Assembly (NCBI GenBank): GCA_903813345.2
Contig: CAIIXF020000001.1
Coordinates: 4,030,001-4,094,000 of the forward strand
From: Owenia fusiformis
Lineage: Eukaryota
Length of the DNA stretch: 64,000 nucleotides
Direction: 5' to 3'
The notes under the pieces: generated by a model
The model's input: only the letters and a program-made list of their open reading frames with translations
The model's database searches: none
Told to the model about the DNA's origin: nothing
Program-made: the position numbers and the translations under genes
Shown here: one piece after another, positions 3,001-63,087 of the stretch
Layout: each line of letters opens with the position of its first letter
How positions within the stretch are numbered: position 1 is the first letter of the stretch

Positions 3001-6000
3001 CACAATTAGAACTTCAATTGTTTTAGCTAAAGGGTGAAACATATTTCACATTGGATTACATACCTAGTAGAGTAACCTACTTTGTATCGGAGTCAATAGA
3101 AAAGTGGCAGGCTACAAAGACCTTATACAAATATCTACCTAACATAAATTACCTAACAACTTGTTCTTAGTTTCATTTATAGAAGGAAATAAGTGATGTA
3201 TGTGTGACATCACAATACAAAGCTGCCTTGATAATAATGGTATACTTGTACAATGAATTGATTCAATGTATCAAATATCTGTTAGGTATACATGTATTAC
3301 CATTCTGAAAATGAAAATGACAACACGAGACAATGAGATGCGGAATAATTACTCACTTATTTCTATAGTTTCACTTACCTGATATACACAGCCTGTTTGC
3401 CATCAGGATGCACAGTGTCTGCAATGGAGGTCCTTATCTGCAGCATAATGTCAACAAGGGCCCCAGTTTTGGACCAAAGAAGCATGTATTCACCATAACC
3501 ATTAAATGTATACTCATACGCATCAAGGGTACTGTAATGTGGACCACCAAGAATATAACCTAAAAAGCAACAAAATGAACATGTAATTGACACGTGGAAT
3601 TAATATTGCCAGTGACTTACATTGTTCAGTTCTTTTATGACTTTTGCAAAAAATGAAATTCATCTCACCTTGTTCCAAATATTTGTACGCCAAACTATTA
3701 GCAAGTGGCCGCTTTTCAATATAGCGATCACAATATGATGTCATCTTAACATCCTCACAGCAGAGTTTGTATGGGAGGTAGTCATGTTCATGGTGCAGCT
3801 GTGCATCTATGTTTGGAGAGTACCTCATGACAAGCCCCAGATCAGAGTAATCAACCCCCAGATGGTAGTTTCCCACTAATGTACTAGAGGACTCGTAGCA
3901 ACATCGGACACTAGCACCTGGACAATAGACACCATTATTATATTACCACCTTTCATAAATGCCACATTTCAAGTTGAATTTGAATGCTGCAATCATTATA
4001 TAGCATGAACCTTGAAATTATCAAAGTGTTACCACAATCTCCTATGTTGTCTAAATTGTTATGATTATCCTTAGTGTTACATTAATAGTATGTACAGTAC
4101 ACTGATGTAAAGCTATACCTCATCTCTGAAGTCTCAACATTTAATTGCCCAAAGTGTTACCATTGTCTGAAGTGTTACCATTATCTAAAGTGTTGTCAAC
4201 CAGTGTCTGTAGTGATACCAATATCAATATCATCTTGTCTACAGTGTTACCATTATCTAAAGTGTTGTCAACCAGTATCTGAAGTGATACCAATGTCAAG
4301 ATCATCTTGTCTACAGTATTACCATTATCTTAAGAGTGAATAATTACCATTGCCTAAAGCAACTAATTTGTTGTAGCAGTAAAAGCCACTTGTAGTTGGT
4401 AACTCTTCTCTTAGGAAGTTTCTGTCAAGGTCTGCTAGCTCTGTGCTTGGTGGACAGACATTGTTAACACCTTCTGCCCAATCACTTGCACTACCCTCAT
4501 TCTAGAATAGAAATGTTACATGGATAACAGAAATTGAGGGATTGCAAGGTATGTTATGTTAATAATTGTTTAAAACAAATAAGTTTGAATTGTTTGAATC
4601 TAAAACAATTTGTTCATGAAAGGTATATATCTGGTCTAACCGATGCAACAATGCAACAATTTTTGGATTAATAACATAATTTCTCACAAAAAATCATTTC
4701 TCACATTTAACCAATCATTGCAGCGCTTCCTTGGGTTAATAAAGCTATCATCATTGAAATCCAATCTATAGCCTGCTATGCCTTTAACATTAAGACCCTG
4801 GAGGTTTTTCTCTGATACTCTATATGCATTGAGGCTGTCAGGTGTGGCGGCCCATTCGCCAGAGTTCTCATCCTCAACCACAAAGAGTGTATCATCAGAT
4901 CTACAGAGGAAATATCCGATTTTCGCTGGGTAGCCATTGTAGCGGAACAGGTTTTCTGAGAAGCTGGAATTTTAAGGCAATGGTTAAGTAAATGATTGTT
5001 GAATTTAAAGTGAATCTTTTGAGAAAACCTCCTTTCCACAAAATCTAAGTTTTTCATTTCCAACCAAAGTAATGAAGCAATGAAATTCTATACCATGAAA
5101 TAAATCTACTTCATGTATATTCTGTCTTTTGACCCATCACAGGGGACCATGTTCAGGGTCAATAAAAGCAGAAAAGTTTAAATTTTTAACTTTCATTTTA
5201 AAGATCTCTCTGAAAAGTTTATTATTCCTAAATGAAACACATTTTTTAGGGCAAATGTTCTTACTTGTAGCCAGTAGGCTGCCAGGTCATCCCCTCATCT
5301 TCATAGATAAAGAAAGTGAATGATGATATTGAGTTTGTCACGATTATGGCTTGGAATGTATTTCGCTGAAATATACAGTATACATGTAGTACTATGCATT
5401 TTTTAAAGCATGGCTTGAGAAAATGGCAAGCTATGGACACATACATCCTTCTTGAAATGACAAAAATCTTCTCTGACACTAATTAGACCACATGCGTTCA
5501 TACTTAGAATACCATTAGTGTGAACCATTAGTTATTCCTAATAAAGTCACAATTCATCTACTTCTATAAATTGATTTGTTCAATAAGAAATGTTGACCAT
5601 TGTGTTAATGGACAATCAAAGAAGTGACGACAAAAAATATTTGTGGAGTTACACACCTCCGTGGAGCTAGCAGGATAAGCTGGAGCCATGTTATCCCATG
5701 TGGCTTTCAGTATAAACTCAGGCTGGTAGTCAAACACACCTAAGACACTGAGCATAAGATACTGAACTTGAGACACAATGTCTGTGTGTGTCTTGTCATA
5801 GACTTGATACCACACCTACAACATGTGAACAGTGTATAAATATTGGCTATAATATGAAGGGATATATTGTATATTTAAGTTTATCCTGAGGGATGATATG
5901 ATATGTTCCCAAGGGATCTATGTGAACCCCCACATTATACAAACAAATAAAAAATATCTTGAGTGAGTAGTTACTGCAGGCATTGTACATTGAGTAGATG

Positions 6001-6783
6001 ATATTTTGTGAAGACACCTACAAAAGTGTGTTGTTTTTGAACAGATGTCTCAAGACAATGTGTGCAATAAATAAATGCTATTCTGCATCATACAAACAAC
6101 CAAAACATTTGTGTCATTGTATGTATGTCCCAGATAAATGAGAATGCATTGGAAGCATACAACTCATGTATTAAGTATCCTATGTAAAGCACTACCTTAA
6201 AGAACCTTGAAGAAGGGTGATTGTCTGCCCAGAATGGCATAATAAAACCACCTATTTCTTCCTCCATTGTTGGCAGTGTATACTGTGCTAGGTTCACAGT
6301 ATGTTTGAACGTGTTCTTCTGGAAAGATGGCACTAACTTGTTGCTGATTATGATCATACCATTTTCAACGAGCTGGAAGGAAAGCCGTCAAAGTTAATAA
6401 ACATAGAGCTCAAAGTACATGAAATTATAAAACCAAGGAGCCATCCAAAACTTAATGAACTCATTAGCATACTTGGTGAAGATTGCATGCCATGATTATG
6501 AAATATTGATATACTACCATTCTTGCTGCAGGGGTATTTTACAAGTATGAATTTAAGCATAAATGATGTCTTTTGAAGAAGGATGACACTACATTCGTCA
6601 TTAAGTTATAACTAAACAAGTCATCTCAGAAACTTACATAAAGTGAGTTGTACAGCTGACCATCTATTGTTGGGAATCCCTCATCAATTGTGATATAGTC
6701 AGAGACTCTTTCTTTGCCCACATGGCTGTATTGTGTCACCTCAATGTCTCCCACTTCAGCACCAAAATCAAACAAACGCTTCT
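6..6783 (-). CDS. NIDO-AMOP-vWD-(Ig-like)-EGF exons of the giant gene
   Basis: NIDO motifs: LFDFGAEVGD, IMPFWAD, ILKATWDNM, NTFQAIIVT...FTFFIYEDEGMTW. AMOP: NPRKRCNDWL, VCPPSTELADLD, VRCCYE, DYLPYKLCC...YCDRYIEKRP. vWD: GGPHYSTLDAYEYTFNGYGEY, RGLMGNFDGVDDND, DIYRFGESW. C-terminal LCACNHEGLC EGF-type cysteines. Confidence 0.88.
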
Positions 6784-9700
6784 CTACATTGAACAAGAAA
6801 GAATAACTCATTAAAGATGGAATGGTGATCAGCAAATTAATGTACGAGGCCCGATCAGAAAGTAAGTAACCAAGTGCTCTTATTTTTCCATACTTTATTC
6901 AATCACATTGAAATTTTCACAGATGATGTAGAAAATATTGACCTATTTAACAAGATCTAAGGAAATGGTCTTGCGTCAATTCCATTGTTATGGCTGTTGC
7001 TATGGTGACAATTGTTTTGGGTAGGCGGGGCACCCTTTTGTGGCGTTTGAAGATACTCAGGTAGAGTTTTTCTACATGTTGTTATACCCCCAAATATATC
7101 AAATTTACATGTGTGACTACATTTTAATTCCTAGTTCTCCCAAATAATCGCTACCAAAGTCAATGCAGTTAAAGCATTGAATCAAAATGATAAAAGCTTA
7201 AGAGTAAGTCTTTGGTTTCTCGTATCCTAGTTTGGACTATTGCAGCATTTGTGTTTGAGAGATTGTTATTATGTGTTTTATGTTATAAGTAAAAACTGTA
7301 CAATGAACAAGAAGTACACAGATACATACCTATACATTTCAGTGTGTCTGAGCCTGGTTTTGGTTTGTATCTTTTATCACAGTGGCATAAATGTGAACCA
7401 ATTATGTTCTCACATGTTGAGTGGGCAGGACAGTTGTGGGTTTCCTCTGAACACTCATCAATATCTGTAAATACAGAAAGACTTACCCTGAAGTTCAGCA
7501 AGCCACACTAGACTCTGATTATAACATGATTTAAGTTTTATTGCTGTATCTGAACAATTTCATATTTAACTTGAACTTAAATGAAAGTTGTAATAGGAAA
7601 TGTATGCATTTTCTGATGAGATCTATATGAATGCACTGCAGGTCAGAAAGTGTCTCTGATTTGAAAAGTGCAGACAAATACGAGTTTTTCTAAGGATAAA
7701 ATTAAGAGAAAAAAACATCAAATGGGGAAAGTCATAAATTGATATTTCTTACCAATGCAGTCTCTTTCTTGTGGTTTGAATCCCTGTTTACAAGTACAGG
7801 TGAAACCACCAGGTGTGTTCATACAGGTGGAGTTAATGTGGCAGTCATTTTTAGAGAACTCACTCTCCTCTGCTAGACTACACTCATCAATATCTGAAAA
7901 TGTTTTATTCACATACATTATATGAGTAGTAACTACATAAACTGCTAGCCTAAATTGTTCAGGTACAATGTCGGTATCATCTTCCACATCTTTTCTCAGA
8001 TTTTTCTTTGCCTGAAAAAAAGGTATTCAATCTTTTTTACTTAGTTTTTGAATTACTTTTAATTTTCTCAATTGTACTTCATGTTTAACAAAATCAATGT
8101 TCGCAAAATCGATATGGGCTGCAAGTATTGTTTGGATATGTTGTCTGTACATCGTATATTAAACACTTTCACTCCTATACATCAAAGGTTTACTCTTGTC
8201 TATGTTTTCAAGGCATTGTTTTCAATTCAATGAATTGAAAATAATCAATGAAAAATACATGACTTTTTTCATCTGTTGAAACAAAACCTTGAAAATCCAT
8301 TGAACAACCATAATACAACCATTGATGTCCAAAATTCAAGATTGAACATTTTTAACAGGGATATACCTTCACATCTAAGGAAGATTTCTGGATTCGTCTC
8401 ATTCATCTTTTTAGTATATCCTATGGCACAGTCACAACTGAAGGACTTGCCCTTGTCCTGGTACAGACAAATACCTCCCTTATCAGCAAAGCAGGGGTCC
8501 TTGTCACACCATTTGATGTGATCTGAAAAGAGCAATTAGTCATTTAATGGATCATTTTTATAACTTTTCGAGTTTGTCATTTAAACATCCTTTAAAATGT
8601 GTTCAGTGAAGATTTTATAAGTGTATGCTTTTATATGTAGACTTCAAATAATGTATGATATCACTTTCATTTGAATATCTTATGACTTAAATCCAGAATA
8701 TTTTTATTTGCATCTAGCTAATCTATTGTAACATTGCCAGAAGTAATAGGTCAAGATTATCATATTCTACTATACCATCTTCACAGCCCCTGATAAAGCA
8801 ATCTGTGCTTAGAGTGTTAGATATGCCATTCTCCCAGAGACAGTAGCGCCCTCCATTAGCGGGGGCAGGGGAATCACAAGTTCGATGTCTGCAACGAAAA
8901 GAAAGTACTCTTGGTAATTGGGCTAAACAAAATATCAGAAAATAATTCTATTTCACTAAGTAATACTTGTCTCAGAAGACATTCTCAGAAGTTATTCCTA
9001 TATTTCATAAAGCCTCAAACAGGCTTGTGATTTACTCAATAAGATAAAAGATAAATTCAAGATTTTTATAAAGATTTATCTAAATTTACCTGTAGAATTT
9101 TCCAGGTCCACAACCAGAGCTACAATCTGTCAGACTGATTGCTGACCACTCACTCCATCCACCATTTGCTGGAGTAGAGTTTAAATTTCGTTTTCAGAAC
9201 TTGGTGAAATAAACAAAATACTAACAGTATGTTGTCCTTAAGTGACTCATAGCGTCCTTTTCAGTATTCTTGAGCAAAATAAAGACTTCATTTTCACCAC
9301 ATCAGGTCTACACATAATGATGTATAAAAATTGTTACTTTTGAAGTTTGGATTATATACACTGTATCAGTGGTAATTTTTCCTAATCATTTAATTGCCTT
9401 AATTGCCAGGTTCGGAAAATTAAATGTCGGAAATATTATCTTCATAATGTTAACCAATGGGAAGTTTTTTGTCATTAGGAAAATTAAAATTAGGAAAAAA
9501 TAATAAACTTGACCATTCGTCAAATTAACCACTCAGATTTAATTCCACTTATACAGTATACATGGAAAGACAGTTTTCCAAAAAGACAACAGAAACAACT
9601 TATAACTATATGAACTTCAAGACAAATATGTGGACAAACAGGATCTGAACTTATGAGCAATTCCTGAGAGGATATATAATAATCCTCCTTTCTTTTGTAA

Positions 9701-12700
9701 CTTACTATGTTCACAGGCAGGTCCAGAGAATGTGTCTCTGCAATCGCACGTGAAGCTGTTAACGCCCTCTATACACTCTCCTTTATTGTTGCAAGAATCT
9801 TCTTTACAATCGGGAATATCTGCAAAAAAATCGTATTAAAACAGTATTGACATAACACGAGGGTTTCTCATACAAAGGTTGTGAAGTTCACAGAATATAT
9901 GTGAGTAATATAATCAGAAGTCTACTTTTTAGAAAAAAGTTCTCTAAAACAAAAAAAAAATTAGTACTGTGGGTACTGGGCTCACATGGTGACAGAAAAA
10001 AACGGATATAATTTTTTGTTGCAAAATTATTTCAAGCAGTCTGTTTCTCAGTCAATTAAAATGGCTGAAAAAAAAAACGGATATAATTTTTTGCCAATAA
10101 TTTGTAACAAAATTATTTCATACAACTACTCTTTACAGTGACATGGCTTTTTGCAATGCAAGACACCTGAAATTATTTGTAAAGCTAGGAAATGGGCCAA
10201 AATTGAATGGCAACCATTTTGAAATCAGGCAAGCTTTTGAACCAGGAGTCATAGGGGAGTTTTTTGTATTGATGTTGAACAAAAATAACTTGAAACTGGA
10301 ATCCTATCGACAGAGGTTTTAAGCAAATGGTCCAAAAGAGGATTTCGCGAGACAGATGGACAAATCAATGTTAACTAAAATGGCTGAAAATAAAAAAAAT
10401 GGATATAATAGTTTGCCGATTTTTTGTAACAAAATTATTTCATACAACTACCTTTTACAGTGACATGGCTTTTTACAAGGCAGGACAGCTGAAATTATTT
10501 GTAAAGCTAGGAAATGGGCAAAAAGTGAATTTCGCGAAACAAGAATAGCAACCATTTTGAAAGTAGGCGAGCTTTTGAACCAAGAGTCATAGGAGAGTTT
10601 TTTGTATTGATGTTGAACAAAATTAACTTAAAATGGGAATCTTATCGACAGAGGGTTTAAGGTAAATGGTCCAAAAGTGGATTTTGCGAGACAGATGGAC
10701 AAATCAATGTTAACTAAAATGGCTGAAAATAAATAAATGGATATAATTTTTCGCTGATTTTTCGTAACAAAATTATTTCATACATCTACTCTTTACATTG
10801 ACATGGATTTTTATCAAAAGTGAATTTCGGAAGACAAAAATGGCGGCCATTTTGAAAATAGGCGAGCTTTTGAACCAGGAGTCATAAGGGAGTTTTCTGA
10901 ATTGATGTCGAACAGAAATAACTTAAAACAGGAATCCTATCGACAGAGGTTTTAAAACGTGCCACTGTTATTGACAGAAAGTGGATTTCGCGAGTCAAAA
11001 AGACAAATCAATGTTAACTAAAATGGCTGAAAATAAAAAAATGGATACAATTTTTCGCTGATTTTTTGTAACAAAATTATTTCATATATCTAATCTTTAC
11101 ATAGACATGGATTTTTACAATGTAGGACACCTGAAATTATTTGTAAAGCTAGGAAATGGGCCAAAAGTGAATTCCGCGAGACAAAAGTGACGGCCATTTT
11201 GAAAATAGGCGAGCTTTTGAACCAGGGGTCATAGGGGGGTTTTCTGTATTGATGTTGAACAGAAATAACTTAACACAGGAATCCTATCGACAGAGGTTAG
11301 CTAGGAAATGGGCTAAAAGTGAATTTCGCGAGACAAAAGTGAAGGCCATTTTGAAAATAGGTGAGCTTTTGAACCAGGAGTCATAGGGGAGTTTTCTGTA
11401 TTGATGTTGAACAGAAATATCTTAAAACAGGAATCCTATCGACAGAGGTTTTAAAACGTGCCACTATTGTTGACGGACGGACAGACAGACGGACAAGTGA
11501 GTGATTGCAAAAGCTCACCATGTGAGCTAAAAACAGCTTTTGATTCCATTTGAAATAATATTTTGACGTTCATAACGTAGATCAAACTTGGCATCATGGC
11601 ACTTTATATAAAATGTGTCTGTACCTGTGCAATTAAAGCCATCTCCTTGGAAGCCATCTTTGCAGTAACATGTAAAACTACCATCAGTATCTTTGCACTC
11701 TGCATGCTCACTACAGGGTAGGTCAGATTCCATGCACTCATTTATATCTAAATAAATGAAGTGTGCCAATCAGTAGCAGAATACATTTACATGGTGGATG
11801 GGAATCAACAGCAAAAGTTAGGCATAAAAAACAACATAAGCAAAGTTTTGGCACTTGTGCGTACATGTCTGGTGACTATAAAAGCAAAAATAGCAATAAA
11901 AAGATAATTTCAGGTGAGCCTTGTTGGTTCACACATAGGCTTCAAAATATTTTTTAGTGATAATAGCAAATATTATCTGCTAGCATTTAGGTTTGCACTG
12001 TGCATTGTTTTATTTGAAATACGATAAATGAATCCTGAATCTATGCATTTTCATGACAAGAACTTTATGAACTAGCTTACTACTGCAAACTTGGTAACCA
12101 TCGTCAACATGTTCAGAGTAGCCCTTGTTGCATATACACTGGTGTGTGCCAGCAAGGTCTAGGCAGTGGGAGTTAGGTATAGTAAGACAAAGGGTGTCAT
12201 CTATAGCACATACATCAATGTCTGAAACATACAATAAACATATTAATACACAAGTACATGTACATTAGCACATACATCAATATCTGAAATATAGAAAAGA
12301 CATAAATATTTTCATTATTATTTAATAACAATTCAACTACAGTTCAAGTAAACCACTTTCAACACTAATTTTTAATTAGTTTCAATTTATTGGTTAATTG
12401 CGGTTGACCCAATAAATCAAACACATACGTAATTAAACATCACAAATCAATACATTTGTAATGTACATGTTTACTGAGACTAACATAAAATAATATTTCA
12501 TGTTAGTCTCAGATGTTTATAACTGACCTACGCAGGTGAATCCATCTCCAGCAAATCCTGTGAGACACGTGCATTGAAAGCCTGCACCAGCGAGACTGTC
12601 TATGCTGTAAGGAAGGTCTGTACATGTGGCGTGTATGTCACAGTTGTGAACACCACTGTCACACTCATTCACAGAATCTGAAACCCATTAGTAATTCGTA

Positions 12701-51700: not shown

Positions 51701-54700
51701 ATACAGCCATCTTTACTCCATGCAAGATATTGCCATCTTTCATCCTAAAAAGTCACACGTGCAAGATGAGATTTACTTGTGACATCACTGGTCTATAAAC
51801 ATCAACAACATGGCAACAGGTACACCGTTAACGTTGCTATGGGTATTCATGCTCATTCTACAAAACTAAGCTGTGACGTCATAACAATGTAGCTTTGTTG
51901 CCACGCATATCCATGTATTTTCTACAATATCGGTATGAGGCCATAACAATTGAAAAAAAATGAAGTTCCATTAATTTCAAGCTATTTTTCACTTAGTTTT
52001 ATCATAAAAAGGTGAAAATATGGCATAATGCAGAGTCATATGAGAAAAACTTCCTTATACTCGTACCTGTGCAACATCGTCCATAATTGACTCGCTTTGA
52101 TAATGTTTCTTTATTTCGTCTGCGACTCGATAAAGAAAAATTATCGAAGCTCATCAAGAATGGACGATCTTGCACAGGTACTCATATAAGAACCTCTATT
52201 TATTATAGGATTTAAATGCAAAAACCTATCCATAAGATGAGAAGAAATGCACTGAATTCCATCACTGTATATGTAGTAAAACATGAGCCAAAGCCAAATA
52301 AAAGGACAACTGGATACTGAAACCTGAAGAAAATATGAACTCTGCTTTAGCATCTCAGATAATGCATACCAATACTGCATTCTGATTGGTCAGAGTGTGC
52401 TAATCTATACTTAACAATGTGTGAACACATTTCATCTGAAATAAAACATATTTCATCAAAGAACTATTTAATGAATAAAACAAGCCCTAAAGTAGTACCT
52501 TGTGATTGCCATTGTAACTTGGCATTATAATCTAATAATAATTAAATTAATCAAAAAAACAATTAAACCCCTCCCCTCGATTTAGCAGGTTGAAATTCAG
52601 TACACTTATTGAGGAAGGTATAAAGTTAAATTGACTGTCACATATTTAATCCTTATTTAATGAATCACAGTATGGTAACGATTTAATATATGACGATTTA
52701 GCTCCATTCTACCCATACAGTGCATGATGCCTACACATATTAATAATTAGTGTTTTGTACTTCATGACATCAGTTGGGGGTAGGCAATAAATGAGAAAAC
52801 CTATATTTGGAATCTTCAAAATATTAATATACTGAACCAGACACTTTTTTATTGCTATGTCGTGTGCCAATCACTATTAAAATCTAGAAAATTAGTATAA
52901 AAGCTGGACGTGTCAGCAAGGTGTGTTTAAGTCAAGTGATTGCTTCAGCGTGATGATCGATGAACTTTGGCGAAGGAATAAATCATCATTTCAAATGGCC
53001 AATGTAAAGATCTAGTTGATACACAAAGATGGGATATGTGACAATAAAAACAAAATGCGTGAAATGGATGATGCCATTGATTTTGAGAAGACAGAAATGA
53101 AAGAAATAAAAAATGATAATAAAAATTCTAACAAAGCCGATTAGAAACATAAAGACAGAAATCAAGATGATACTAAAGAACTGATTAAGAAAAAAGGATG
53201 AGTGTCATCAAAACCAAAATGGAGAAAAGTGATGACACCACTAGTTCTGAGATGACTGAAGTGAAAGAAATAAAACACGAAAATAAAGATTATAATGGCG
53301 AAATCATTGACATCATTGATTCTAAGAATACTGAGACGAAAGAAATAAAACAGGATAATAACGATTCTAATGAAACTGATACGAAACTTAAGGACACAAG
53401 TGGATGTGATACTAAAGGACATAACTCTGTATGTGATGCCAAAGTTAAATCTGTGGTAGCTATGATCAATGACAGTAAACCTGTTGCTATCAATATAAAG
53501 GTAACAATTTTGCCCACTGAGAATACAGGGGAATCTGACAATAAAGTGAAAATTGAGATATGTGAGATAGATAGGACCAGTGGTTCTGAGGATCCTGCAA
53601 TGGCTGAAGTCAAAGATGAAAACGAAGATGTAAACAAAGATATCAATGAAACTAAAACGAAAGATGACATCCAGGGGAGCAAGCACATTGGATTCTGGAA
53701 ATACGACATCTTGAGAACTCTCCTCATTTGCTAATGTTACGACTATCCATGCATGCCTAAATATCAGAAATGCTCGATCCATTGCTTCAGGCATCACTTG
53801 GTTGCTAATAGCAATAAGTGTGGCTACCATTGTCATCTTTGGACTAACTGAAAAGACAAAGTCATTTTTCAACTTTCCAACTGAGGATGCTCTCTACAGT
53901 GGAGAGGAAATAATTACATTTCCATCTATTACAGTGTGTTCAGTGGAACCCGTAAAGATGTCATCTCAACATGACAACCTACAAACATTCCGAAGGAATA
54001 CTTTGATCGTAAGTTCGCATTTTGAGAAGACAAAAGAGGTGATGCTACCACCATGTTCATTATACCAAGGGTATGATGTGCTTACCTTTTTCAACCGAAT
54101 GGCGTATATCAAAAAACGAACATTGTATTCTAATACAAGGTATGCAGAAAATCTGCAAGGCAAGGAAAATGAAGAGTTGTTTCGGAGTTATGAAGATCTT
54201 GTTTTGGAATGTCGATTCAATGGAGAAGTTTGTGACAAAAGTTCCTTTAAAAAGGTCTTCATACCCTTGTATGGTAACTGCTACACATTTGATACCAATG
54301 CCTCAGAAAGGTATATTGTGGCAGAAGCTGGTCCTGAGTCAGGTTTAATGATGATCTTGTTCATTAATTCCTACAATCCGATTGATTATAACACATTTGC
54401 ATACAAAAATGACCACACAACTGGTATAAATGCTTACATGAGTGACCACGCAACAGCAAGTGATGGAATTAGGTTAACGATACATGCACCAGGCACAATA
54501 CCTGAACCTGAAGAGAAGGGGATTGATCTCTCACCGGGACGTTTAACTGCTATTGGCCTTTCACAAGATGTGCGGACCTTAATGAAACAGCCATATGGGG
54601 AGTGTTCTGAGGAACTCTTCAACAAGGACACATCCTTTACTTACACTACAGATTTGTGTTATCGACAATGTATGCAAGAACTCACAATGCGTAAATGTGG

Positions 54701-57076
54701 CTGTTTGACCCCAAGAGCACCGATACCTTCGCATGTTGACAGATCAAAGTATGTTCCCTATTGCGGAATTTATTTACGATCAAACGGGACCATGCTGCGA
54801 AAATGGATTTCATTTGGACCACAATCACATTTAAACATAACAGACTGGCAAGATTCATTCCGAGCTATGGAATGCGAGAAAGAAGTGTCAGAAAAGATAT
54901 ATGAGACGACAGAAACACTATGCAATTGTAAAGAACAATGCAAGGACATCACTTACGATCCACTTATAAGTACAACACCATGGCCACATGAAAAGCACTA
55001 CAAACGAATAAACAGAAGTTTCATAAAGTACATCAAGCGATTTTCACAAATTGAAACACTATTCAGACTGAGGCTAGATAATTCAAATGGAAGGTATGAT
55101 CCATATTCTGATCTTTACTATTTCTATACCGCTCTCAAGAAAAATGAATAGCAATTCTGGGAAAAATTTTGGCCACACTACTATATGTATGCTGGTCTAA
55201 TATTTCCCCGTGACAATGTATTTCTAGACGATAAAGATCCGTACATCAAATGCAATTTCTATCCTGATTATGTCAATAGCACCGGATGGCCCATATTGTT
55301 TAAATTGGAGTTACACAATGTCACCTTTAACAAGAATCTTATCGCTAACAAGATCATCGAGAAAAACTTCCTTAAAGTGAACATTTTTTATCGGTCACTG
55401 AACGTCAATAGAATTGCGGAAGAAGCGAGTTATCCCTTCAATAAATGCAGACATTGGTGGAATCATAGGGATGTACCTAGGCATGTCCTTGTTCTCTGTT
55501 GTAGAGTTGGTGTACATTGTCATTTCATTGGTTATAAAGTTTGTGTGCAAATGTAGGAAAAAAGAAAGTGATAAAGAAGACGATGGGGAGTGAGAGAGGG
55601 TGAAAGAATGTTTGTAAGAGTGCGCGACAGAGATAGAGAAATATAGAGAAGTACTGAGAGGGGGGCAAGAGAGAGTGTTTGTGAGAGTCAAAGAGAGTCA
55701 GAGAGAGGAGGGGCAAGAGCATGTTTATAAGAGTGGGCCAGAGAAAGGGAGTGAGAGGGGCAAGAGTGAGACAGAGAGTGGGCCAGAGGTTTACATGGAG
55801 ATGAGTGGTGAACATATTAATAGTCACTATGCTTACCATGGTCAGAAGTGAAAATATACATCAGGGCTCTCGCTATGCTTTTAGACTGTGGTGCAGCACC
55901 ACAGTCTATTTAGCTCCCACCACAACCTTTTGTCAAATATTGATCATTCCCATTTTAAACTTAGCATGTAAAAAGGATAAAATATAACATAAATATAATT
56001 TATCAAAATTGAACAGATATACTGTAGATGTTTCCACCACACCTTAAATATTTTTTGGTAAGAGCCCTGTACATGGATTTTATGTCAGAGTTTATTACCT
56101 GCAAACTGACATAAGAGTGAGTTGATGAGTGCAGTGGCAACTCCAGTGGAAGTGTACCCAGATGCAGACCTTATGTTCTCAACAGCAAGTAACACCTGCG
56201 GTTCCCCTGCCTTTATAACAAGGCAGCTCTCATGGTCCAGGACATCAGAGTCAATTGTAACTGAAAAACAATGAATATAGATAAATGTATTTTGTAGAAT
56301 AAAATTTATGAGCATCTTTGAAATAAAAATGCAACATTAAAATCTAGTTATTGAAGAGTTCAGTGTATTCCCTTGTATTCTCTTGTTCTCAATGATCGCT
56401 AATAGCCTAATCTAAAAGCATCTTGTGAAGTAGATGTGGAATAAACTGGATATTATTTTCATTCTTCAGCTAATAATTGTATTTGAGGAATGCCCTCATC
56501 ACTTTCCAGTGAGTTTTGTTTTGCATTGTAAAAACTTCATTATTGTACCTGAATTTTGTATAGCTTCACATCCATTTTCTAATAAAAACTGTTGCGGCTT
56601 GTAATAACCATGAGATCAAATTATGTTAAAACGAAAGAGGCACAACAACCATCTCACCAAAAGTAAATGAGAAAAAATTGCTGATGTTTTTTTTTATTGA
56701 ATCTGAATTAACATGACGTTCAATGAAAGTATTTTACCCAGAATTATATCCCATGAAACTCAATTTTGCCTCAACCAGTTTTTGCCTCACCCATTTAAAT
56801 TTGCCTCACCAATTCTTAGAACCTGGCTGAACTCTGCTATACAAATACCATTTAAATAAATGAATGACTATTACCAGTGATTCCAATTAACACAGATCCT
56901 CCTGCATTGATCCCATTGTATGTTTTCTCCACATCAGCTGTGGCAATGGTGACATTCAGTTGTATATCATCATCATCCACAGTATCATCACTGGAGACAT
57001 AGACAGCAATGCCAAAATCTGGATCATCATCGGAGCCTCCAAGCAGAGCACTGCCTGCTCCATTCCTCAACTCCAT
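6..57076 (-). CDS. Giant multi-exon mucin-like extracellular protein: about 25 CARDB-like repeats - EGF x4 - TSP1 - EGF x3 - NIDO - AMOP - vWD - EGF. Incomplete at the left edge; 5' end uncertain.
   Basis: Dozens of short minus-strand ORF fragments are bounded by AG/GT signals and join in compatible phase wherever checked, e.g. 6-114 GGEGTFRYASCQCYNGWSGESCSDDLDGCATSPCFG, 248-490, 694-797, 4348-4501, 13277-13533, 29603-29888. The domain order is that of MUC4/SUSD2-like proteins. Confidence 0.85.
2529..2645 (+). repeat. Short dispersed TTAA-flanked element; other copies at 43644-43763 and about 51297-51360
   Basis: Shared core TCAC(C/A)ACCTGCCATTTGTTA...CACCAAC. The two fuller copies begin and end at TTAA. 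Confidence 0.55.
4150..4357. repeat. Degenerate 18-bp repeat with an approximately 72-bp higher-order duplication next to an AMOP exon donor
   Basis: AAGTGTTACCATTGTCT-type units; 4171-4242 is repeated at 4243-4314. The core TTACCATT(G/A) matches the junction at 4344-4352. Confidence 0.75.
6843..7035 (+). mobile_element. Left-end fragment of a related mariner-type element
   Basis: TA-CGAGG start, then TGAAATTTT, GTTGCTAT and GGGTAGGCGGGGCA blocks in the same order as the left arm of 43808-44879. Confidence 0.55.
7330..12677 (-). CDS. EGF / calcium-binding EGF exons with one TSP1 repeat (part of the giant gene)
   Basis: Phase-1 exons DIDECSEETHNC, DIDECSLAEE...C, DINECMESDLPC, DIDVCAIDD, SVNECDSGVHNC, DIPDCKEDSCNNKGECIEGVNSFTCDC. 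TSP1 is split over exons at about 9090-9168 (NGGWSEWS...CSSGCGPG) and about 8777-8888 (HRTCDSPAPANGGRYC). Confidence 0.9.
9961..11533 (+). mobile_element. Non-autonomous Helentron/HINE (pearl-like) element with an internal tandem repeat array
   Basis: 5' subterminal GCTCACATGGTGA (9980-9992) is the reverse complement of TCACCATGTGAGC (11515-11527). There are several long imperfect internal repeats (CCATTTTGAAAATAGGCGAGCTTTTGAACCAGGAGTCATAGG...ATCCTATCGACAGAGG), a (GACG/GACA)n tract, the 3' hairpin AGCTCAC-cat-GTGAGCT, then AAAAA. Confidence 0.8.
12845..51652 (-). CDS. Tandem CARDB-like (Ig-fold, acidic) repeat region of the giant gene, usually 2-3 exons per repeat
   Basis: Recurring motif triad DL-x-V-xx-F ... 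(Y/F/W)-(L/V)-S-x-D-xx-LD-xx-D ... C-G-x-(V/I)-Y-hhh-VD-xxxx-h-x-E-xx-E-x-NN-...-C. Examples: FYVSLDRVLDDED...LCGRVYLLAVVDSEKWIEETSEYNN; FCGEVYVIVVLDSGTAVKEIDEGNN; WLSHDDQLDMDTD...YCGAVYIIMQVDDLNAIDEPNKVNN. The CARDB label rests on motif recognition only. Confidence 0.75.
13797..14940 (-). repeat. 17-copy 66/72-bp tandem repeat of the exon 3' end plus 5' splice donor, in frame (FNDINTYVTGVSMRPDQCNGEY)
   Basis: Unit TTCAATGATATTAATACCTATGTTACTGGAGTGTCCATGCGCCCTGATCAGTGTAATG|GTGAGTAC; four units carry an extra ATGTAC. The unit count accounts exactly for the 418-aa ORF. Confidence 0.97.
18905..19150 (+). mobile_element. 3' remnant of a non-LTR retrotransposon ORF2 (CR1/L2/Jockey-type)
   Basis: RFRAGLILKAHLY...CICG...TTHHFFLNCPLLQQERCTL matches the C-terminal CCHC motif typical of LINE ORF2. 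Confidence 0.7.
25286..25358 (-). pseudogene. tRNA-like fragment (SINE head or tRNA pseudogene)
   Basis: The minus strand has an A-box-like TAGCTCAAATTG and a B-box GGTTCGATTCCC over 73 nt, but the acceptor and anticodon stems pair poorly. Confidence 0.5.
32000..32460 (-). repeat. About 11-copy 41-bp tandem repeat of a splice acceptor plus the first 17 nt of the exon
   Basis: Minus-strand unit gaatatttaatttcctattttaag|GTATATGCAACTTGGAT. The innermost copy is the acceptor of exon 31802-32015 (VYATWINTELD). Confidence 0.93.
34386..36545 (+). CDS. TRPV: TRPV-family (TRPV5/6-like) cation channel with an intronless CDS, nested antisense in host intron 32903-37008
   Basis: 719-aa ORF from actATGG at 34386. 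It has ankyrin repeats (RATGTFF, NSKGHNLLHTLIL, MTPMLLA), YGP...YDITDIE, PWKKILQLRW, six hydrophobic segments, KMIFGDVLRF, a pore helix FSNALISTYKLMLGIADL, and MLFNMLIGIMANT. An acceptor (catttag) just 5' of the ATG suggests a 5'UTR intron. Confidence 0.92.
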   Translation: MAGNQSNELVFYPPNSEENNIYDTDKTNITISHMIKTQAEDDNCHDSSESKADEKVTKLRDTFLQVIEANDMNGFTMCTDEYHELLELEIITGIYDPQLISNDTNLLRHAVTHTFDEAACILLELSDNGAVMKDKKHGVGLLHDTVIKNMPRIVEAISEKLTKEEFHELMAMRATGTFFKEHFKGLELSLEIACWAGNYKMVKSLLQINPMGVYLENSKGHNLLHTLILLCDEDNHKVTDFVKDVFMMIYNAESGKMALEYLLDMKDNNEMTPMLLAMKRGEFPFVMLVLNTVLKEVNSEYGPTRYVNYDITDIEKCPGAVSKGPTGIMYVATSADSHRLPNMLSLQPWKKILQLRWNMYKWYLLFMMLFHFAVLAYFAVNVTISPSRDELILMNNATFDWINGSSTGVGFLEQRGYVGLQGLMQFGAECCFILYGLTGFINQFAIMMRMVVRLFRARLTMSEMIQRMFNPATGSGLYGVTNLVFTFNLVLSYSFKILNLSQYVSRLSAAGSIICGFIYLTFYYRTIPYTSFFTVTINKMIFGDVLRFLVIAFGYLIGFSTAFYILFKDTEGGAPPDMDSFSNALISTYKLMLGIADLKTMKVANGYYIVTFYILYTIIMTVMLFNMLIGIMANTINDVSVHKQCFSKFQRLSTLMITEFGQFWSGGFIKKSLEKGDVSVKSVMYAGRKQKRLFIECLEIDHEARFSWISDNKQYEHFT
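40376..40445. mobile_element. Miniature Tc1-like MITE (about 70 bp)
   Basis: TA-CAGGGTGTCCATAAAG ... CTTTATGGACAACCTG inverted ends. Confidence 0.65.
41266..41480 (+). mobile_element. 5'-truncated second copy of the same HINE-like element
   Basis: Nearly identical to about 11345-11533, including the GACG/GACA microsatellite and the terminal hairpin. Confidence 0.85.
43808..44879 (+). mobile_element. Internally deleted mariner (Tc1/mariner) DNA transposon
   Basis: Perfect 32-bp TIR CGAGGGTTGTCCCAGAAGTAATGCACTATATG with TA on both sides; imperfect inverted similarity continues inward. Transposase remnants: HTH-like MKKVYEEYIPDRTTIMGWHKRFQRDDLTLYDNSKHGR and C-terminal KGQYFEK. No catalytic core seen. 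Confidence 0.9.
49850..49955. repeat. (ATTGY)n pentanucleotide microsatellite
   Basis: Imperfect ATTGC/ATTGT run. Confidence 0.85.
52226..52262 (-). CDS. Candidate start / signal-peptide exon of the giant gene (MEFSAFLLILWI + phase 1)
   Basis: ATG at 52262, then 12 mostly hydrophobic codons + G|GT. It joins exon 51561-51652 in phase to give MEFSAFLLILWIVVPEIKG-VQTEP. There is an upstream acceptor (ttttcttcag) near 52324. The donor GTTTTT is weak. Confidence 0.5.
52896..52903 (+). promoter_or_regulatory. Candidate TATA box of the DEG/ENaC pseudogene
   Basis: TATAAAAG about 55 bp upstream of the first in-frame ATG at 52953. Confidence 0.4.
52953..55593 (+). pseudogene. Intronless DEG/ENaC (FaNaC/ASIC-like) channel pseudogene
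   Basis: Motifs SSFANVTTIHA, FPSITVC, ECRFNG, YGNCYTF, GPESGL, GIRLTIH, CYRQC...CGC, CNCKEQC, NFLKVNIFYRSL and ADIGGIIGMYLGMS are spread over different frames. Lesions: frameshift at about 53713, in-frame TAG 55149-55151, frameshift at about 55445, and extra stops in the acidic N-terminal repeats (52995-53200). Terminal TGA is at 55591-55593. Confidence 0.85.
55590..55800 (+). repeat. GA-rich low-complexity tract directly 3' of the DEG/ENaC stop
   Basis: GAGAGAG/GGGGCAAGAG/GAGTGGGCCAGAG motifs. Confidence 0.7.
56099..57076 (-). CDS. Two further CARDB-like exons (56875-57076, 56099-56260): upstream extension of the giant gene or a tandem paralogue
   Basis: MELRNGAGS...AVYVSSDDTVDDDDIQL has the same S-x-D motif. 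The second exon ends LLCQFA with a phase-1 donor compatible with the acceptor at 51652. Confidence 0.7.
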
Positions 57077-58311
57077 CTGAAGAAAGTATCTTTCACTTAT
57101 AAATATGTGATTATTAATTCAAAACAATACATTTTTAATTTGGTAAAAGCACCTCTTTGGTGTATTAACATTGTAATTCTAAGAGGGGTGCAGGGAATAG
57201 AATGTACATATTTGAAAAACAATCATTTAGAGAATTGATTAATGCTATTCAATTTTTCACTATGTAGAGCTACTAATTTTATCAAATGGCAGCAATGGCT
57301 GGAACTGGCTATAGAACTGTTAATAGATTCTTATGTAAATGCGCAAAGTTATGAGATGTATGCCATATAAAAGGCATTGCTCACCTTCATTGGTGTAAAA
57401 ATAAAATCAATTTTTATTGGGGGAGGGATTACGTATCAAATAATGAAGCCACATAAACTAACCATTGAACAGAAAAATTAAGTTTGGAAAAATAAATCCT
57501 TAAGAAGGACTGTGAAAAAAACAGCAAATCAACATTAAGTTATATTAGGGGTAGGTTTAAACTTAATATTTGGACACCATCCCCTCCTGTTAATATTTTA
57601 TATTATTCATTGGTGATTCAGGTGTCAAAAAAAACAATTCATAGTCAAAGAAATATCTAAACATTATACTGATTGGATAAGTTACCAACTAAGTTTCCCG
57701 ATAAAATTGAAACAGACGGATGGATGTGGATGGAAGGTTGGACAAGAGGGCACATCTGTAGGATTGCTGTGTGAGCAAGACACACACAGAGTCATGTCAT
57801 TTTCAATGAACAGAAGCTTGCTTGCCTCTAGCTTTGAATTGAAAAACAATAAAGACAACCAGCTCATTAGGGTTCAGGTACTTACTGCATGTGAGTTCAT
57901 CAAGGAGATATAAATCATAGAGACATTGACAATAGGCACTTAAAGGGACTTGTAAATGAAAAACTATGGTATACCCATTGATATAAATTTAAAGGCATAT
58001 GAACGAAGGTGCCATACTTACACATTGCAATTGCTTACTTGATTGTGTTTCTATGTTTTTTTTAATTTATTTATTTTACATTATTAATACAAAAATACAA
58101 AATAGGTTTCATATTACTTGATTGTCAAATGTGGAATCTTTTGTGACACTTTTGTAACATCTCAACATGCATTTATTATACGGATTTCAAGTTATCTAGT
58201 TTTAAGTTCTTGAGTTATAGCAATCATACTTCCTTCTCAAATCTAGAGGCTTTTATAATATATCTGCATTTCTTAATGGTGACATAAAAATTATCAAAAA
58301 TAGATCCCTTA

Positions 58312-58419
58312 AATCATACATTATCGTTATAAACAGGATCCTTTAACAACTGTAGGTCTGAATCATACATTATCATTATAAACAGGATCCTTTAACAACT
58401 GTAGGTCTGAATCATACAT
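58312..58419. repeat. 49-bp direct tandem duplication upstream of the Pif-like gene
   Basis: AATCATACATTATC(G/A)TTATAAACAGGATCCTTTAACAACTGTAGGTCTG occurs twice, followed by a third AATCATACAT. Confidence 0.85.
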
Positions 58420-59016
58420 CATTCGATATTCGTCTTAATACAGCAATCCTAGACTGCCATCTTGTTAAAAGTCAAATCCTTGGGTAAGTTTTAATAACTT
58501 TCTTCCAATTTAATGGAGAGTTATAAAATTATTTTGAATGAACAATATCAAAAAGGAAAAATGGAGCAGCTATATTCTTTTATAGACGGTACATTTAATA
58601 CATTTTGGATGGTAAGAACATTTTGGCTTTTGTTCAATCAATTTATTTTGTCAAAAAAGGAGTCAAATCTTAGCCACGATTCAAATTGTAAACATTGATT
58701 TTTCTCTAATGAGACATGTATAGTGCCTGTGTGTCAATGTATTGTGCCATAGGCCTTTATCTAAAAATAAGCGTTACAAAGTTTCACATTTTCAAATGAG
58801 GTCCTAGACCTGCAAGAACCAAATCTGACATTCAATACTTAAAAATAAATGTTATAGTATCACATTTATATGAGTGGCCATTTTGAATTGAGTGGCCATA
58901 TTTGAAATTCCTTCTAAAGCATAGGATCAACAATGAGGAAATATGCCAGAATTCATAGATGTCGTTCATTCAATTACTTGGCATAATTGCTTGGTACTAT
59001 TTCTAGAACTGCAAAG

Positions 59017-62000
59017 ATGTTAAAACTCCTCCTTCTATGCTGCTTTTATGCTGTTTCTATGGCAATTGAAGATAACCAACCCATGATAACAGGTATATAC
59101 TTTGAAACATATGTGTAATATTATATATACTCAGTGAAACATATCATATCATTGGGTATGCAGACATCATAATTATAGATACCAATGCTTTGTACTTGTG
59201 TAGAATGACAACAGGACAAATGCTATCAATAATTTGTGTATTTGTGTGTAATGACTCTTGTTCATCATAAATACATGTGTTATGACTTCTGTTAACGATA
59301 TTGTGTAATAGAGGTTTTGCTATATTGCTTTGTAATCTCACCGAAGTCTCTTATTGAATGGAAATTTAGGAGATTCAGGAGTTTTTACTGATCTACCCCT
59401 AACAAAAATACTGCCATCGTCTATTTATCCATCTATATATCAGCTCTTTTAAGCCTTATGCTAAGAATATTGTGTTATGTCTGTATGCTAACAATATTGT
59501 GTAATCATGTGTAATGGCTTATGCTGACAATATTGTGTAATCATGTGTAATGGCTTACGCTGACAATATTGTGTAATCATGTATTATGGCTTTAATGCTG
59601 ACAATACTGTGTAATCATGTGTAATGGCTTATGCTATCTTGTTTTACAGCTATTGATGTTGATGACCCAGGTGAGCTTCTCATATTTGTCATATAATCTT
59701 ACAATTATTTGAAAGCATCTATCACTAAATCATATGTAATCTGGCTTCTTCAAAGAACATTTAAAAATAGTCTGATATTAAAGTGAATAATGAGATTCCC
59801 CAAATGCAGGGGTCTAGACATCATCCATTGTGTTCCTTGAAGAAGGAAGAAACAGACTGGCTGTCTGAACCCCTGCAATTGGAGAATGAAATTATCAGGT
59901 GTTTCTTCTAGATCGTTGCAAGACTGGCTACTTCAATGAGCAATCGGATGACTGCTGCCACTACTACCAATGTGACTTTAGTGGCAGGAAGGCATTCAGG
60001 AGGATGTGTATGGAGCCATTGGTCTGGAATGATGACATAGGGGGTTGTGCATTCAATTCTGTCCCGGACACATGTGATGATTCTGTCACGCAATGCTATG
60101 GTAATTTGCTTACATATATATTTGCTTGTATGTACCACAATACCACTTCTCAGAATTTTAATGCTTTGAGAATGTTTGAAAAGGATGTGAGAAAATCAAT
60201 GAAAATCATGCATATATTATGCACCATCAAAACACATTAAGTCACATTCAAAGTATGTTAAGAACTTCGTGCAATTTTGAATTGACTTGCAAAAGAAAAA
60301 CCCTGAATCGCTCATGCTTCTACCCATCAACTGAATTAATTTAATATGCCTATTTTCAGATCCCGTGCCCACCCCTAAACCATGTGACACTGAGGGAGAT
60401 CCAGACAGTAAGTTGCTTCCCAACAATACATTAGACTTGAACCAACATTTACATCAGCAATGAACACTATCATTTAACAGGCAATATGAACCATTAAACT
60501 GACTATAATTGACTAATGCTTACACCAGAAATGTTACTTACATGCTAAAAGTTATAGATACACATTCACTTCAACTCACACTTACAAACACCGATACTAC
60601 ACTAGGAATACAGACATAGTGAACTAATACTATGAATCATAATGACACTTATAATCATAACTTATAGAGTGTTGTGAGAGAGGAATAACATGGGACGATC
60701 ACACAACTGGTACTGGCAATATCTACACAATAAACCCAGAGCGACCAGATATTTACCAAGTATGCAACAAAAACCACAAGTGTCCACGCAGCAGCTTCAA
60801 TGTTACATCATGCAGCTGCAACCCAGTAGAAAGTGAGTAGAAAATGCTGCGGACTTATCTAAATTTTTGTAACAGTAAGTAAGACAACATACGAGTGTAA
60901 GTAGGCAACAAACGAGTGTAAGTAGACAACATACAAGTGTAAGTACACAACACATGAGTGTAAGTATGCAACATATGAGTGTAAGTAGGCAACATACGAG
61001 TGTAAGTAGACAACATACGAGTGTAAGTAGACAACACATGAGTGTAAGTATGCAACATATGAGTGTAAGTAGGCAACATACGAGTGTAAGTAGACAACAT
61101 ATGAGTGTAAGTAGGCAACATACGAGTGTAATTAGGCAACATACAAGTGTTAGTAGACAACATATGAGTGTAAGTATGCAACATATGAGTGTAAGTAGGC
61201 AACATACGAGTGTAAGTAGACAACATACAAGTGTAAGTAGACAACATACAAGTGTAAGTAGACAACACATGAGTGTAAGTAGACAACATACGAGTGTAAG
61301 TAGACAACATATGAGTGTAAGTAGACAACATACAAGTGTAAGTAGACAACATATGAGTGTAAGTAGACAACATACAAGTGTAAGTAGACAACATATGGGT
61401 GTAAGTAGACAACATATGAGTGTAAGTAGACAACATACAAGTGTAAGTAGACAACATATGAGTGTAAGTAGACAGAACGTCCCATTTCTCACTTAAATCA
61501 CAATAAATTAGATGCAAGTAGAAATTGATTTTCATCATTAAATATTCAAAATTTAGTCAAAGCGATATCATATTTGAAATTAACAGACAAAATTGCATCT
61601 ACAAACGAAGTTTTAAAACTTGTAGATCAACTCTGAAATTTTCTTTTCTTTGAAACATCACATCAAATTTTGAGATTTCCCATTGGCTCATTTGTTATGG
61701 GGCTCTTAATGGGAAAACCTGAATGTGTAGTCCCAAAGACATAAACTTCAAACATGTGTACTATACATATGAATGGGCTTATTTCCAGCTAACTGTGACT
61801 GTATGTACTGGTCCTTTTCTGCACCAGCTCCATTTGCTGATAAGAACCAAGGTGTCCCATTCACCAGGGGAAGCTGTAGAGCAGATGTAGATAATTCCGG
61901 AACTTTGGTCTGCGATGGTGAGAGCCCAGCAGAGTTGAAATATATGCAACTGGCCTATTTTGATTATGGTTTCACAATGTTTGCCAGCTTTGCCCCTGAC

Positions 62001-63087
62001 CTCAATGGGGTAGTGACCACAAATGAGGGCATTAATGGGCCAAGTGTTGAGGCTACAGTTAGTGGAGATACAGTCACAGTCACTGTTGGGGAAGTGAGCT
62101 TGTCTACAGCTTATGTGAGTATACAATTTTGAAAACTAGATGGCATGATATAGCAATGCATATTGGTTTATAAAGTCACAGTTACTGTTGTTTCAGTTAT
62201 TTTTTCATTTATTGTTGTCTCAGTTATTTTTTAGATACAGTTGTTTCAGTAACTGTTCTTTTAGATAGTGTTCATACAGTTACTATACTTTCTCAAAATG
62301 GCATTGTTGATCTTACAAAAGACGACATAAACTTAACTTGACTGATTTCATAGTTATGATACTCAATTGCGATACTTTAACTATTATTTATGAAACTGTA
62401 TTTTTATTTTCAGAGTGGTTCTTCTGGTTCTAAATGGTTTGTATTCACCAAGGAAACAAGCAGTAAAACAGTGTCCCTTTATGTGGGTGACTCCAGCAGC
62501 TTTTCAAAGACTGAGACCCTATTACCAGCAAACTGTAAGTGAACCTTGCACCATACATAAAAGTGACCATAAATTAATAATAAATTAAAGAACATTTTCA
62601 CATTTCAATTGCTTTATGAATCATTGCAGACAATCCCAAAGGGAACAGATGTACCTTGAAACTTGGGTTGACAGCATCAACATATGACAGTGTAAGTGGA
62701 AAGCATACAATAATGAAAGAAGACAGCATACAACAATGTTTAAGACAGCATTTTAATATTTCATAGAAATTGGATAAAAGGAGAATTGTAAATATTGGCT
62801 CCTTCCACATTCAACTTTGCTGTGCAAAATAATAATAAAAAAGATTAAACCACACGAGTTTTCCTATAATTTTTAAATATTTTACATGTTTTTACTCAAG
62901 GATGTTTTATATTTTAAATGATATATTCATATTTTTATACTTATAGTAACAGCTTTACAAATCTTTTACAAATCTATCAATTTTGTTTTAGTTTGGCCTG
63001 TGCACATATGGATGGACTGAAGAAGATGTGTCAAGCTTCCAGTCAAGTGGGGAACCGATTGCAAACCCTAATCCTGTTGTCATATAA
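59017..63087 (+). CDS. Secreted chitin-binding (ChtBD2/peritrophin-A) + LamG/ConA-like protein, Pif-like; 9 coding exons, 367 aa
   Basis: Exons 59017-59092, 59650-59670, 59912-60100, 60360-60407, 60668-60832, 61789-62114, 62414-62534, 62630-62691 and 62992-63087 total 1104 nt in one frame. Signal peptide MLKLLLLCCFYAVSMA; CBM14 motif DDCCHYYQC...RRMCMEPLVWN...C; a second Cys-rich module; C-terminal FTMFASF...WFVF...VSLYVG...CTLKLG...GLCTYGW. AATAAA at 63125. Confidence 0.8.
59458..59636 (+). repeat. 36-bp tandem repeat (4-5 copies) ending just before the 21-nt microexon acceptor
   Basis: Unit GCTGACAATATTGTGTAATCATGTGTAATGGCTTAT; degenerate similar sequence further upstream at about 59295-59340. 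Confidence 0.85.
60875..61474 (+). repeat. 21-bp minisatellite (about 28 copies) in an intron of the Pif-like gene
   Basis: Unit (G/A)AGTGTAAGTAGACAACAT(AC/AT); nearly every copy contains GTAAGT. Confidence 0.95.

What the first reader, a model, noticed from the sequence alone, without database searches (positions are those of the whole stretch)
4150..61474. Locus-wide pattern: tandem repeats are built from splice signals
Seen: the larger tandem repeats outside transposons sit on or beside exon junctions and multiply a splicing element. Donors: 4150-4357, 13797-14940, 60875-61474. Acceptors: 32000-32460, plus single duplications near 12205-12290, 43421-43579 and 46686-46840. Branch-point-like CTRAC: 59458-59636. 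Inference: either a mutational process duplicates junctions (for example transcription- or splicing-coupled repair, a proposed route to intron gain and exon sliding), or selection keeps multiplied splice signals as enhancers or decoys. Caveat: introns here are short, so proximity to a junction is partly expected.
Basis: partly seen in the sequence, partly recalled or inferred. Interest (0 to 1): 0.7.

Follow-up and report, generated by a model that had tools for sequence, protein, structure and literature searches.

The report
Splice-junction minisatellites in an annelid gene
Several repeats in this marine worm gene copy an exon-intron border many times, a kind of repeat already known from lancelets and humans, and a wider sample of the genome shows them no more often than chance placement predicts.

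Summary
The window is annelid DNA (database label Owenia fusiformis) holding a roughly 90-exon gene and a second gene. The 21-bp array starts 42 nt past its donor and is purely intronic; the CTRAC reading has no support. These are 'mirage' minisatellites, known from amphioxus and human F7.

Inside this hand-picked window 8 of 18 local duplications span a junction (4.2-5.0 expected). In 970 kb sampled elsewhere, 10 of 247 do (11.6 expected; ratio 0.86, CI 0.41-1.58), and repeat units are not richer in splice motifs. Best reading: ordinary duplication, survival when the exon-adjacent copy stays intact, then minisatellite turnover. About 2,600 such arrays genome-wide is a rough estimate. My RNA lay was uninformative.

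One lead remains: donor units are mostly exon plus at most 12 intron bases (12 of 15, partly hand-measured, biased set). The scan has noted this class before, in this genome and others.

The parts
248..57076 (-). Host gene, about 90 exons, more than 5,000 aa (CARDB-like repeats, EGF, TSP1, AMOP-like); median intron 309 nt, median exon 160 nt
   Evidence: P0001 covers 28245-8440; 87-exon chain open for 5,074 codons, last 3 exons unresolved; Pfam
13796..14941 (-). Donor mirage: 17 units of 66/72 bp = last 60 nt of the exon + GTGAGT; first donor after 14882; 16 extra identical donors; the two tested (second and last) read in frame without a stop
   Evidence: P0001 joins 14882 to 13533
31994..32445 (-). 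Acceptor mirage: 11 units of 41 bp = about 19 nt intron end + 22 nt exon start; only acceptor 32015 gives an open frame
   Evidence: 9 of 9 distal AG acceptors give stops
4151..4337 (-). Degenerate donor mirage (18/72-bp periods): 5 GT-bearing copies of the donor after 4348
12204..12304 (-). Two-copy acceptor duplication, period 62, 87% identical; model uses 12221, distal 12283 gives stops
43415..43579 (-). Two-copy acceptor duplication, period 97, 84%; 43475 open, 43572 gives stops
46653..46920 (-). Two-copy acceptor duplication, period 139, 71%; 46693 open, 46832 gives stops
58312..58419 (+).
18636..18795 (-).
13534..13573 (-). 19-bp duplication ending at acceptor 13533; extra AG is weak (1.5 bits)
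59471..59636 (+). 36-bp intronic array with 4 CTRAC, ending 13 nt before a 21-nt microexon (59650-59670); does not copy the junction
60875..61474 (+). 21 bp x28.5 intronic array with GTAAGT, 42 nt downstream of donor 60832; not a junction copy; no other genomic match returned
57794..63087 (+). Second gene (P0003, 431 aa; weak CBM_14 chitin-binding match)

Best explanation
These are 'mirage' minisatellites. (1) A short tandem duplication arises by ordinary slippage or microhomology repair, at a place unrelated to splicing (inferred). (2) In a gene with a junction every ~300 nt, a 40-140-bp duplication often covers one (computed). (3) It survives because the copy touching the exon still holds the whole exon end and a whole splice signal, while the other copies fall into the intron (shown by anatomy). 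(4) The spliceosome uses the exon-adjacent site, and leaks to distal acceptors meet stop codons (frames shown; site use inferred from gene models and from F7 and amphioxus). (5) Unequal exchange expands and homogenises the inner copies, leaving the exon copy different, often at silent positions (pattern shown, process inferred). A mild excess near junctions is expected without any special process: selection freezes one copy, so such pairs stay recognisable longer (inferred).
For: No overall enrichment in 970 kb by three tests. 16 of 563 predicted junctions have a nearby spanning copy against 33 of 582 random positions. Repeat units are not motif-rich. Imperfect homology flanks the units in register: 12 of 20 nt at the 66-bp array (0.3% of control positions), 9 of 12 in L015 (0.15%); windows were chosen after inspection. 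Extra sites decay: copies lack GT or AG in L004, L038, L049 and one 41-bp unit. The database models use the exon-adjacent site at 14882, 12221 and 58386. Every distal acceptor tested gives stops, 12 of 12. Acceptor units keep at least 19 nt of intron (hand-set values). The same anatomy and silence are reported for amphioxus and F7.
Against: The window itself shows about a 2-fold excess: 12 of 18 within 15 nt against 5.6-6.3, P 0.001-0.004. Unique 30-150-bp repeats gave 12 of 104 against 6.1-6.4, P 0.013-0.018, before four coding repeats were removed. Donor units are exon-heavy in 13 of 15, which random breakpoints do not predict. Exons in the sample are my own predictions and miss many real ones. 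Only 8-14 events carry the test. Splice-site use was not shown by RNA here.
Confidence: 0.7

Rival explanations
1. A mutational bias tied to the 5' splice site (co-transcriptional U1 or R-loop lesions, or breaks at the edge of the exon nucleosome) puts one breakpoint just after the donor, so duplications capture the exon end plus a few intron bases.
For: Intron part is 12 nt or less in 12 of 15 donor arrays against 5.6 expected (P 0.0003); 4 of 5 in my unselected sample (P 0.01); 5 of 7 in arrays fetched afterwards (P 0.058). Local excess in the window.
Against: No excess in number genome-wide. The hypothesis was formed on 8 of the 15 arrays. The other 7 were picked by earlier readers, who notice exon-rich units more easily. 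Values were hand-set; the automatic measure disagreed for L039 and L032 and failed for L099. Fisher's combined test gives P 0.09. L101 (8 exon + 25 intron) and human F7 (4 + 33) go the other way.
Confidence: 0.13
2. The 66-bp array is a translated, length-variable exon extension: a later donor is used, adding up to 16 Cys-bearing units of 22-24 aa.
For: The array is open in the exon's frame. The last donor leaves a typical 268-nt intron instead of 1,348 nt. Array-only variants are 4 silent to 2 replacing (P 0.02-0.04, my hand count), and the insert is 6 nt.
Against: P0001 joins the first donor. Silent differences from the exon also occur in L054 and L039, which cannot be read through in frame (by eye), so exchange with a constrained exon can explain them. 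A period divisible by 3 occurs one time in three. In F7, in-frame pseudo-sites are not used.
Confidence: 0.1
3. Selection keeps multiplied splice signals as enhancers or decoys.
For: The 16 extra donors in the 66-bp array are intact, as are 18 of 18 in L039 and 7 of 7 in L015. The 36-bp array lies right before a 21-nt microexon.
Against: Young homogeneous arrays keep any motif. Extra sites are lost in other arrays. There is no motif enrichment. The 21-bp array's sites are weak, and CTRAC is not enriched before acceptors here.
Confidence: 0.05
4. The arrays are assembly artefacts.
For: No reads were laid over the long arrays, so copy numbers rest on one assembly.
Against: Units carry patterned variants (66/72 alternation, shared substitutions), and two-copy pairs are 71-87% identical.
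Confidence: 0.02

Closest known systems
Amphioxus 'mirage' minisatellites: Adh3, globins BflGb6/BflGb9, TnC, PGBD5 (PMC3087553 and PMC3902484, passages read; Canestro et al. 2002 not held, known only through those passages)
   Same: Units span an exon-intron boundary on either side. Sizes are similar (10-160 bp). Boundary copies differ from inner copies. The same intron-gain model was already proposed.
   Different: Annelid rather than cephalochordate. More copies than the globin cases (17 and 11 against 3-6). At least six in one gene. Silence of the extra sites was tested by RT-PCR there and is untested here.
Human F7 intron 7 37-bp VNTR, with 6-16, CBS intron 13, LAMIN B2 and PDGF (PMC1557585; abstract, introduction and discussion read)
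   Same: The first monomer spans the exon-intron boundary and identical pseudo-donors follow. The first site is used in F7, LAMIN B2 and PDGF.
   Different: The F7 unit is 4 nt exon + 33 nt intron; here 60 + 6. In CBS and 6-16 two pseudo-sites are also used. Acceptor-side arrays are common here.
Intron gain by tandem genomic duplication of AGGT (PMC3443670, passages read; PMC4974935, search listing only)
   Same: Tandem duplication multiplies splice signals; the 41-bp unit contains AG|GT.
   Different: That route duplicates a purely exonic segment and creates a new intron. Here existing junctions are copied into existing introns, and no new intron was found.

Membership tests
Mirage / boundary-spanning minisatellite | Head-to-tail repeat whose terminal unit contains a real exon-intron boundary | tested here: met
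   13796-14941, 31994-32445, three two-copy pairs, degenerate 4151-4337
Mirage / boundary-spanning minisatellite | Same test for the 21-bp and 36-bp arrays | tested here: not met
   42 nt after donor 60832 and 13 nt before acceptor 59650; no copy of the junction
Mirage / boundary-spanning minisatellite | Extra copies keep GT or AG | tested here: met
   16 of 16 donors; 9 of 10 acceptors
Mirage / boundary-spanning minisatellite | mRNA uses the exon-adjacent site | tested here: inconclusive
   Database models and open frames agree; the RNA lay showed no splice joint among its listed rows
Mirage / boundary-spanning minisatellite | Copy number varies between haplotypes or somatically | not testable with these tools
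   One assembly only; no reads over the long arrays
Mirage / boundary-spanning minisatellite | Inner copies homogenised, boundary copy excluded | tested here: met
   Exon copy differs from array consensus in the 66-bp, 41-bp, L054 and L039 arrays (by eye; no tree built)
Intron gain by AGGT tandem duplication | Duplicated segment wholly exonic, with a new intron between copies | tested here: not met
   All confirmed units include the end of an existing intron; no orthologue was available to date the introns
   10 of 247 against 11.6 in the independent sample; about 2-fold only in the pre-selected window

The most novel reading that the evidence does not exclude
In this annelid germline, tandem duplications preferentially break within about 12 nt after the 5' splice site, so donor arrays are built of exon end plus the bare U1 site. 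That would be a splicing-coupled mutational signature feeding thousands of arrays, a few of which (such as the in-frame 66-bp array) act as variable-length coding extensions.
Probability: 0.13. Interest if true: 0.7.

Novelty: new member of a known kind. Interest (0 to 1): 0.3.

Why it matters
As it stands, it extends mirages to an annelid. It also gives a first null test, which suggests that they need no special cause. With roughly 2,600 clear arrays (CI 840-6,000, from 5 in 970 kb), this genome offers a large natural set for asking how a spliceosome picks one site among identical ones, including the less studied acceptor side, and whether mirages ever give new introns. If the short-tail bias at donors held up, it would link splice-site recognition to mutation.

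Tried and rejected
RNA lay on 41500-60900 with X18, X20, X2 and X21: exon bins had near-zero RNA depth, signal came from transposon reads, and none of the 15 listed joints (99 not shown) was a splice joint. It is no evidence either way. The run search listed no holder on record as RNA. A search for short proteins across the 14882-13533 junction found 0 of 329 candidates. Pfam hits of the array ORF (DUF5339, Colicin_D, Lipoprotein_2) are repeat artefacts with no passing stretch. My gene finder placed false exons inside arrays, so arrays were collapsed or masked. Masking made false junctions in four coding repeats (L049, L051, L064, L073), removed by hand. 26 of 379 sample repeats near locus edges were dropped, and dispersed and wholly exonic ones too, leaving 247. 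The 'uniform from 6' geometry test is post hoc and is not used. The first window count (7 of 25) predates the 58386 junction and is superseded. Literature searches for mirages in annelids or a genome-wide enrichment test returned none; subscription papers are not covered.
Full report
Setting. The longest minus-strand ORF matches one database protein at 98%, P0001, labelled Owenia fusiformis. The window is G000:C1:4030001-4094000. P0001 fixes 34 junctions between 28098 and 8522. A gene finder trained on them, with hand curation, gave 90 minus-strand exons; the first 87 chain without a stop for 5,074 codons. Median intron is 309 nt. A plus-strand gene at 57794-63087 matches database protein P0003. 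Both proteins are predictions, probably from this assembly, so they are not independent RNA evidence.

Observation. All eight repeats exist, and six copy a real border. The array at 13796-14941 has 17 units of 66 or 72 bp, each the last 60 nt of an exon plus GTGAGT, giving 16 extra donors identical to the first; P0001 joins the first. The array at 31994-32445 has 11 units of 41 bp, with 10 extra acceptor copies, 9 keeping AG; all 9 give stops and only 32015 is open. The pairs at 12204, 43415 and 46653 (87, 84, 71% identical) each add one AG that leads to stops. The array at 4151-4337 holds 5 degenerate GT-bearing copies of the donor after 4348.

Two items fail. The 21-bp array begins 42 nt after donor 60832, which P0003 joins to 61789. 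It is not a copy of that junction, and its GTAAGT scores 3.3 bits against a 10th percentile of 6.0 for real donors. The 36-bp array has 4 CTRAC, but that motif sits before 3 of 86 acceptors against 3 of 84 control positions.

Test in the window. I defined events objectively (TRF score 50 or more with period 10 or more, plus local BLAST pairs), collapsed each to one unit and compared with random placement outside wholly coding positions. 8 of 25 span a junction against 5.8-6.8 (P 0.19-0.35). Without 5 dispersed and 2 coding repeats, and with a TE-aware null, 8 of 18 span (4.2-5.0; P 0.03-0.09) and 12 of 18 lie within 15 nt (5.6-6.3; P 0.001-0.004). So there is about a 2-fold local excess, but the window was flagged because of this pattern.

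Test outside the window. I fetched 97 stretches of 10 kb from 12 contigs; ten lie within 170 kb of the window. They hold 379 repeats, 353 away from edges. Exons were predicted; at score 15 or more, 53 real against 3 on reversed sequence in 40 loci. With arrays collapsed, 8 of 353 span a junction against 13.4-14.2. With array cores masked, 14 of 353 against 14.0-14.5. For non-dispersed, non-coding repeats with a TE-aware null: 10 of 247 against 11.6 (ratio 0.86, CI 0.41-1.58), 16 against 14.7 within 15 nt, and 27 against 20.6 within 45 nt. An annotation-free test agrees: strong donors in 42 of 338 units against 47.1, acceptors in 44 against 50.4. From the junction side, 16 of 563 junctions have a nearby spanning copy against 33 of 582 random positions, which include TE arrays.

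Results against my reading. Unique 30-150-bp repeats gave 12 of 104 against 6.1-6.4 (P 0.013-0.018), falling to 9 of 101 against 7.2 once four coding repeats were removed. Arrays of 3 or more copies gave 6 of 52 against 4.3 spanning, 9 against 5.1 within 15 nt (P 0.049) and 12 against 6.5 within 45 nt (P 0.014), among 12 cells. Enrichment above about 2.4-fold is excluded for 30-150-bp repeats; a milder one is not.

The class is common. The sample holds five clear multi-copy cases: L015 (81 bp, 7 extra donors), L039 (110 bp, 18 extra donors, scramblase exon by Pfam), L054, L044 and L096 (acceptors). That scales to about 2,600 genome-wide (CI 840-6,000), probably low because exons are missed. 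Earlier scan notes list many more in this genome and in others. I checked the DNA of seven but not their RNA claims.

How it works. Shown: the exon-adjacent copy is complete, the other copies lie in the intron, distal acceptors lead to stops, extra sites decay in some arrays, and the exon copy differs from homogenised inner copies. Suggestive: imperfect homology in register at unit ends, 12 of 20 nt and 9 of 12 nt, with control rates of 0.3% and 0.15%, windows chosen after inspection. Inferred: slippage or microhomology repair starts a duplication anywhere; selection removes those that damage the exon or its site; unequal exchange expands survivors; the spliceosome takes the exon-adjacent site. 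Also inferred: selection slows divergence of the exon copy, so junction pairs stay detectable longer, enough for an excess below 2-fold among old pairs such as the four here.

Open leads. First, donor units carry 12 nt or less of intron in 12 of 15 arrays against 5.6 expected. This idea came from 8 of them; the 7 fetched later gave 5 against 2.5 (P 0.058) and were chosen by earlier readers. Values were hand-set, the automatic measure disagreed for L039 and L032 and failed for L099, and Fisher's test gives P 0.09. Second, the 66-bp array is open in frame, its last donor would leave a typical 268-nt intron, and its variants lean silent, 4 of 6. Silent differences also appear in arrays that cannot be read through, so I give translation 10%.

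RNA. The single lay, on 41500-60900, found the genes barely covered and listed no splice joint. Splice-site use is therefore untested here, and the two long arrays were not covered at all.

Known systems. Amphioxus mirages have the same anatomy, reported silence and an intron-gain model (PMC3087553, PMC3902484; passages). The original Adh3 paper was not held. Human F7, LAMIN B2 and PDGF use the first donor only; CBS and 6-16 also use two pseudo-sites (PMC1557585; abstract, introduction, discussion). Intron gain by AGGT duplication concerns exonic segments (PMC3443670; passages). Searches for an annelid report or a genome-wide enrichment test found none; supplements were not read and subscription journals are not covered.

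Verdict. Real mirages, a new member of a known kind. The claim that repeats are built from splice signals holds for six of eight arrays here but not as a genome-wide bias in my sample. Interest 0.3.

Noticed in passing
window 34317-36545 (+): Intronless 742-aa ORF with ankyrin and ion-transport matches (TRPV-like, my label) nested antisense in a 4.1-kb intron of the large gene.
   Followed up: no
window 53715-55556 (+): DEG/ENaC (ASC) channel ORF nested in another intron; a stop at 55149-55151 is followed by a 134-aa open frame. It may hide an intron or be a broken copy.
   Followed up: no
window 59650-59670 (+): 21-nt symmetric microexon included in P0003, directly behind the 36-bp array, which is rich in TGC; microexon regulators binding UGC are recalled from memory, not tested.
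   Followed up: partly
window 248-57076 (-): Gene of more than 5,000 aa with many CARDB-like repeats, EGF, TSP1 and AMOP-like parts. No other relative was found for its longest exon among proteins of 805-2295 aa; the database model covers only 2,180 aa.
   Followed up: partly
L039:4747-6832: The scramblase donor array differs from its exon copy by many silent changes, as if derived from another functional version of the exon (by eye).
   Followed up: no
window and L004-L104 donor arrays: Donor arrays often have periods divisible by 3 (66, 81, 60, 33, 27, 36, 33) while acceptor arrays seldom do (41, 62, 97, 139, 49, 94, 38); small, biased set, not tested formally.
   Followed up: no
window 47449-47320 (-): The open frame runs on about 130 nt beyond the modelled donor and looks coding, but its next donor is out of phase with exon 47204; possible model or assembly error.
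   Followed up: partly
window 43794-44893: Element with 95-nt terminal inverted repeats, heavily covered by RNA and DNA reads of other copies; DNA transposon by my reading.
   Followed up: no
window 41500-60900: DNA run X21 covers unique sequence thinly, at most about 4 reads deep and near zero in several bins, at the 90% cut-off; the sampled animals may be well diverged from the assembly.
   Followed up: no
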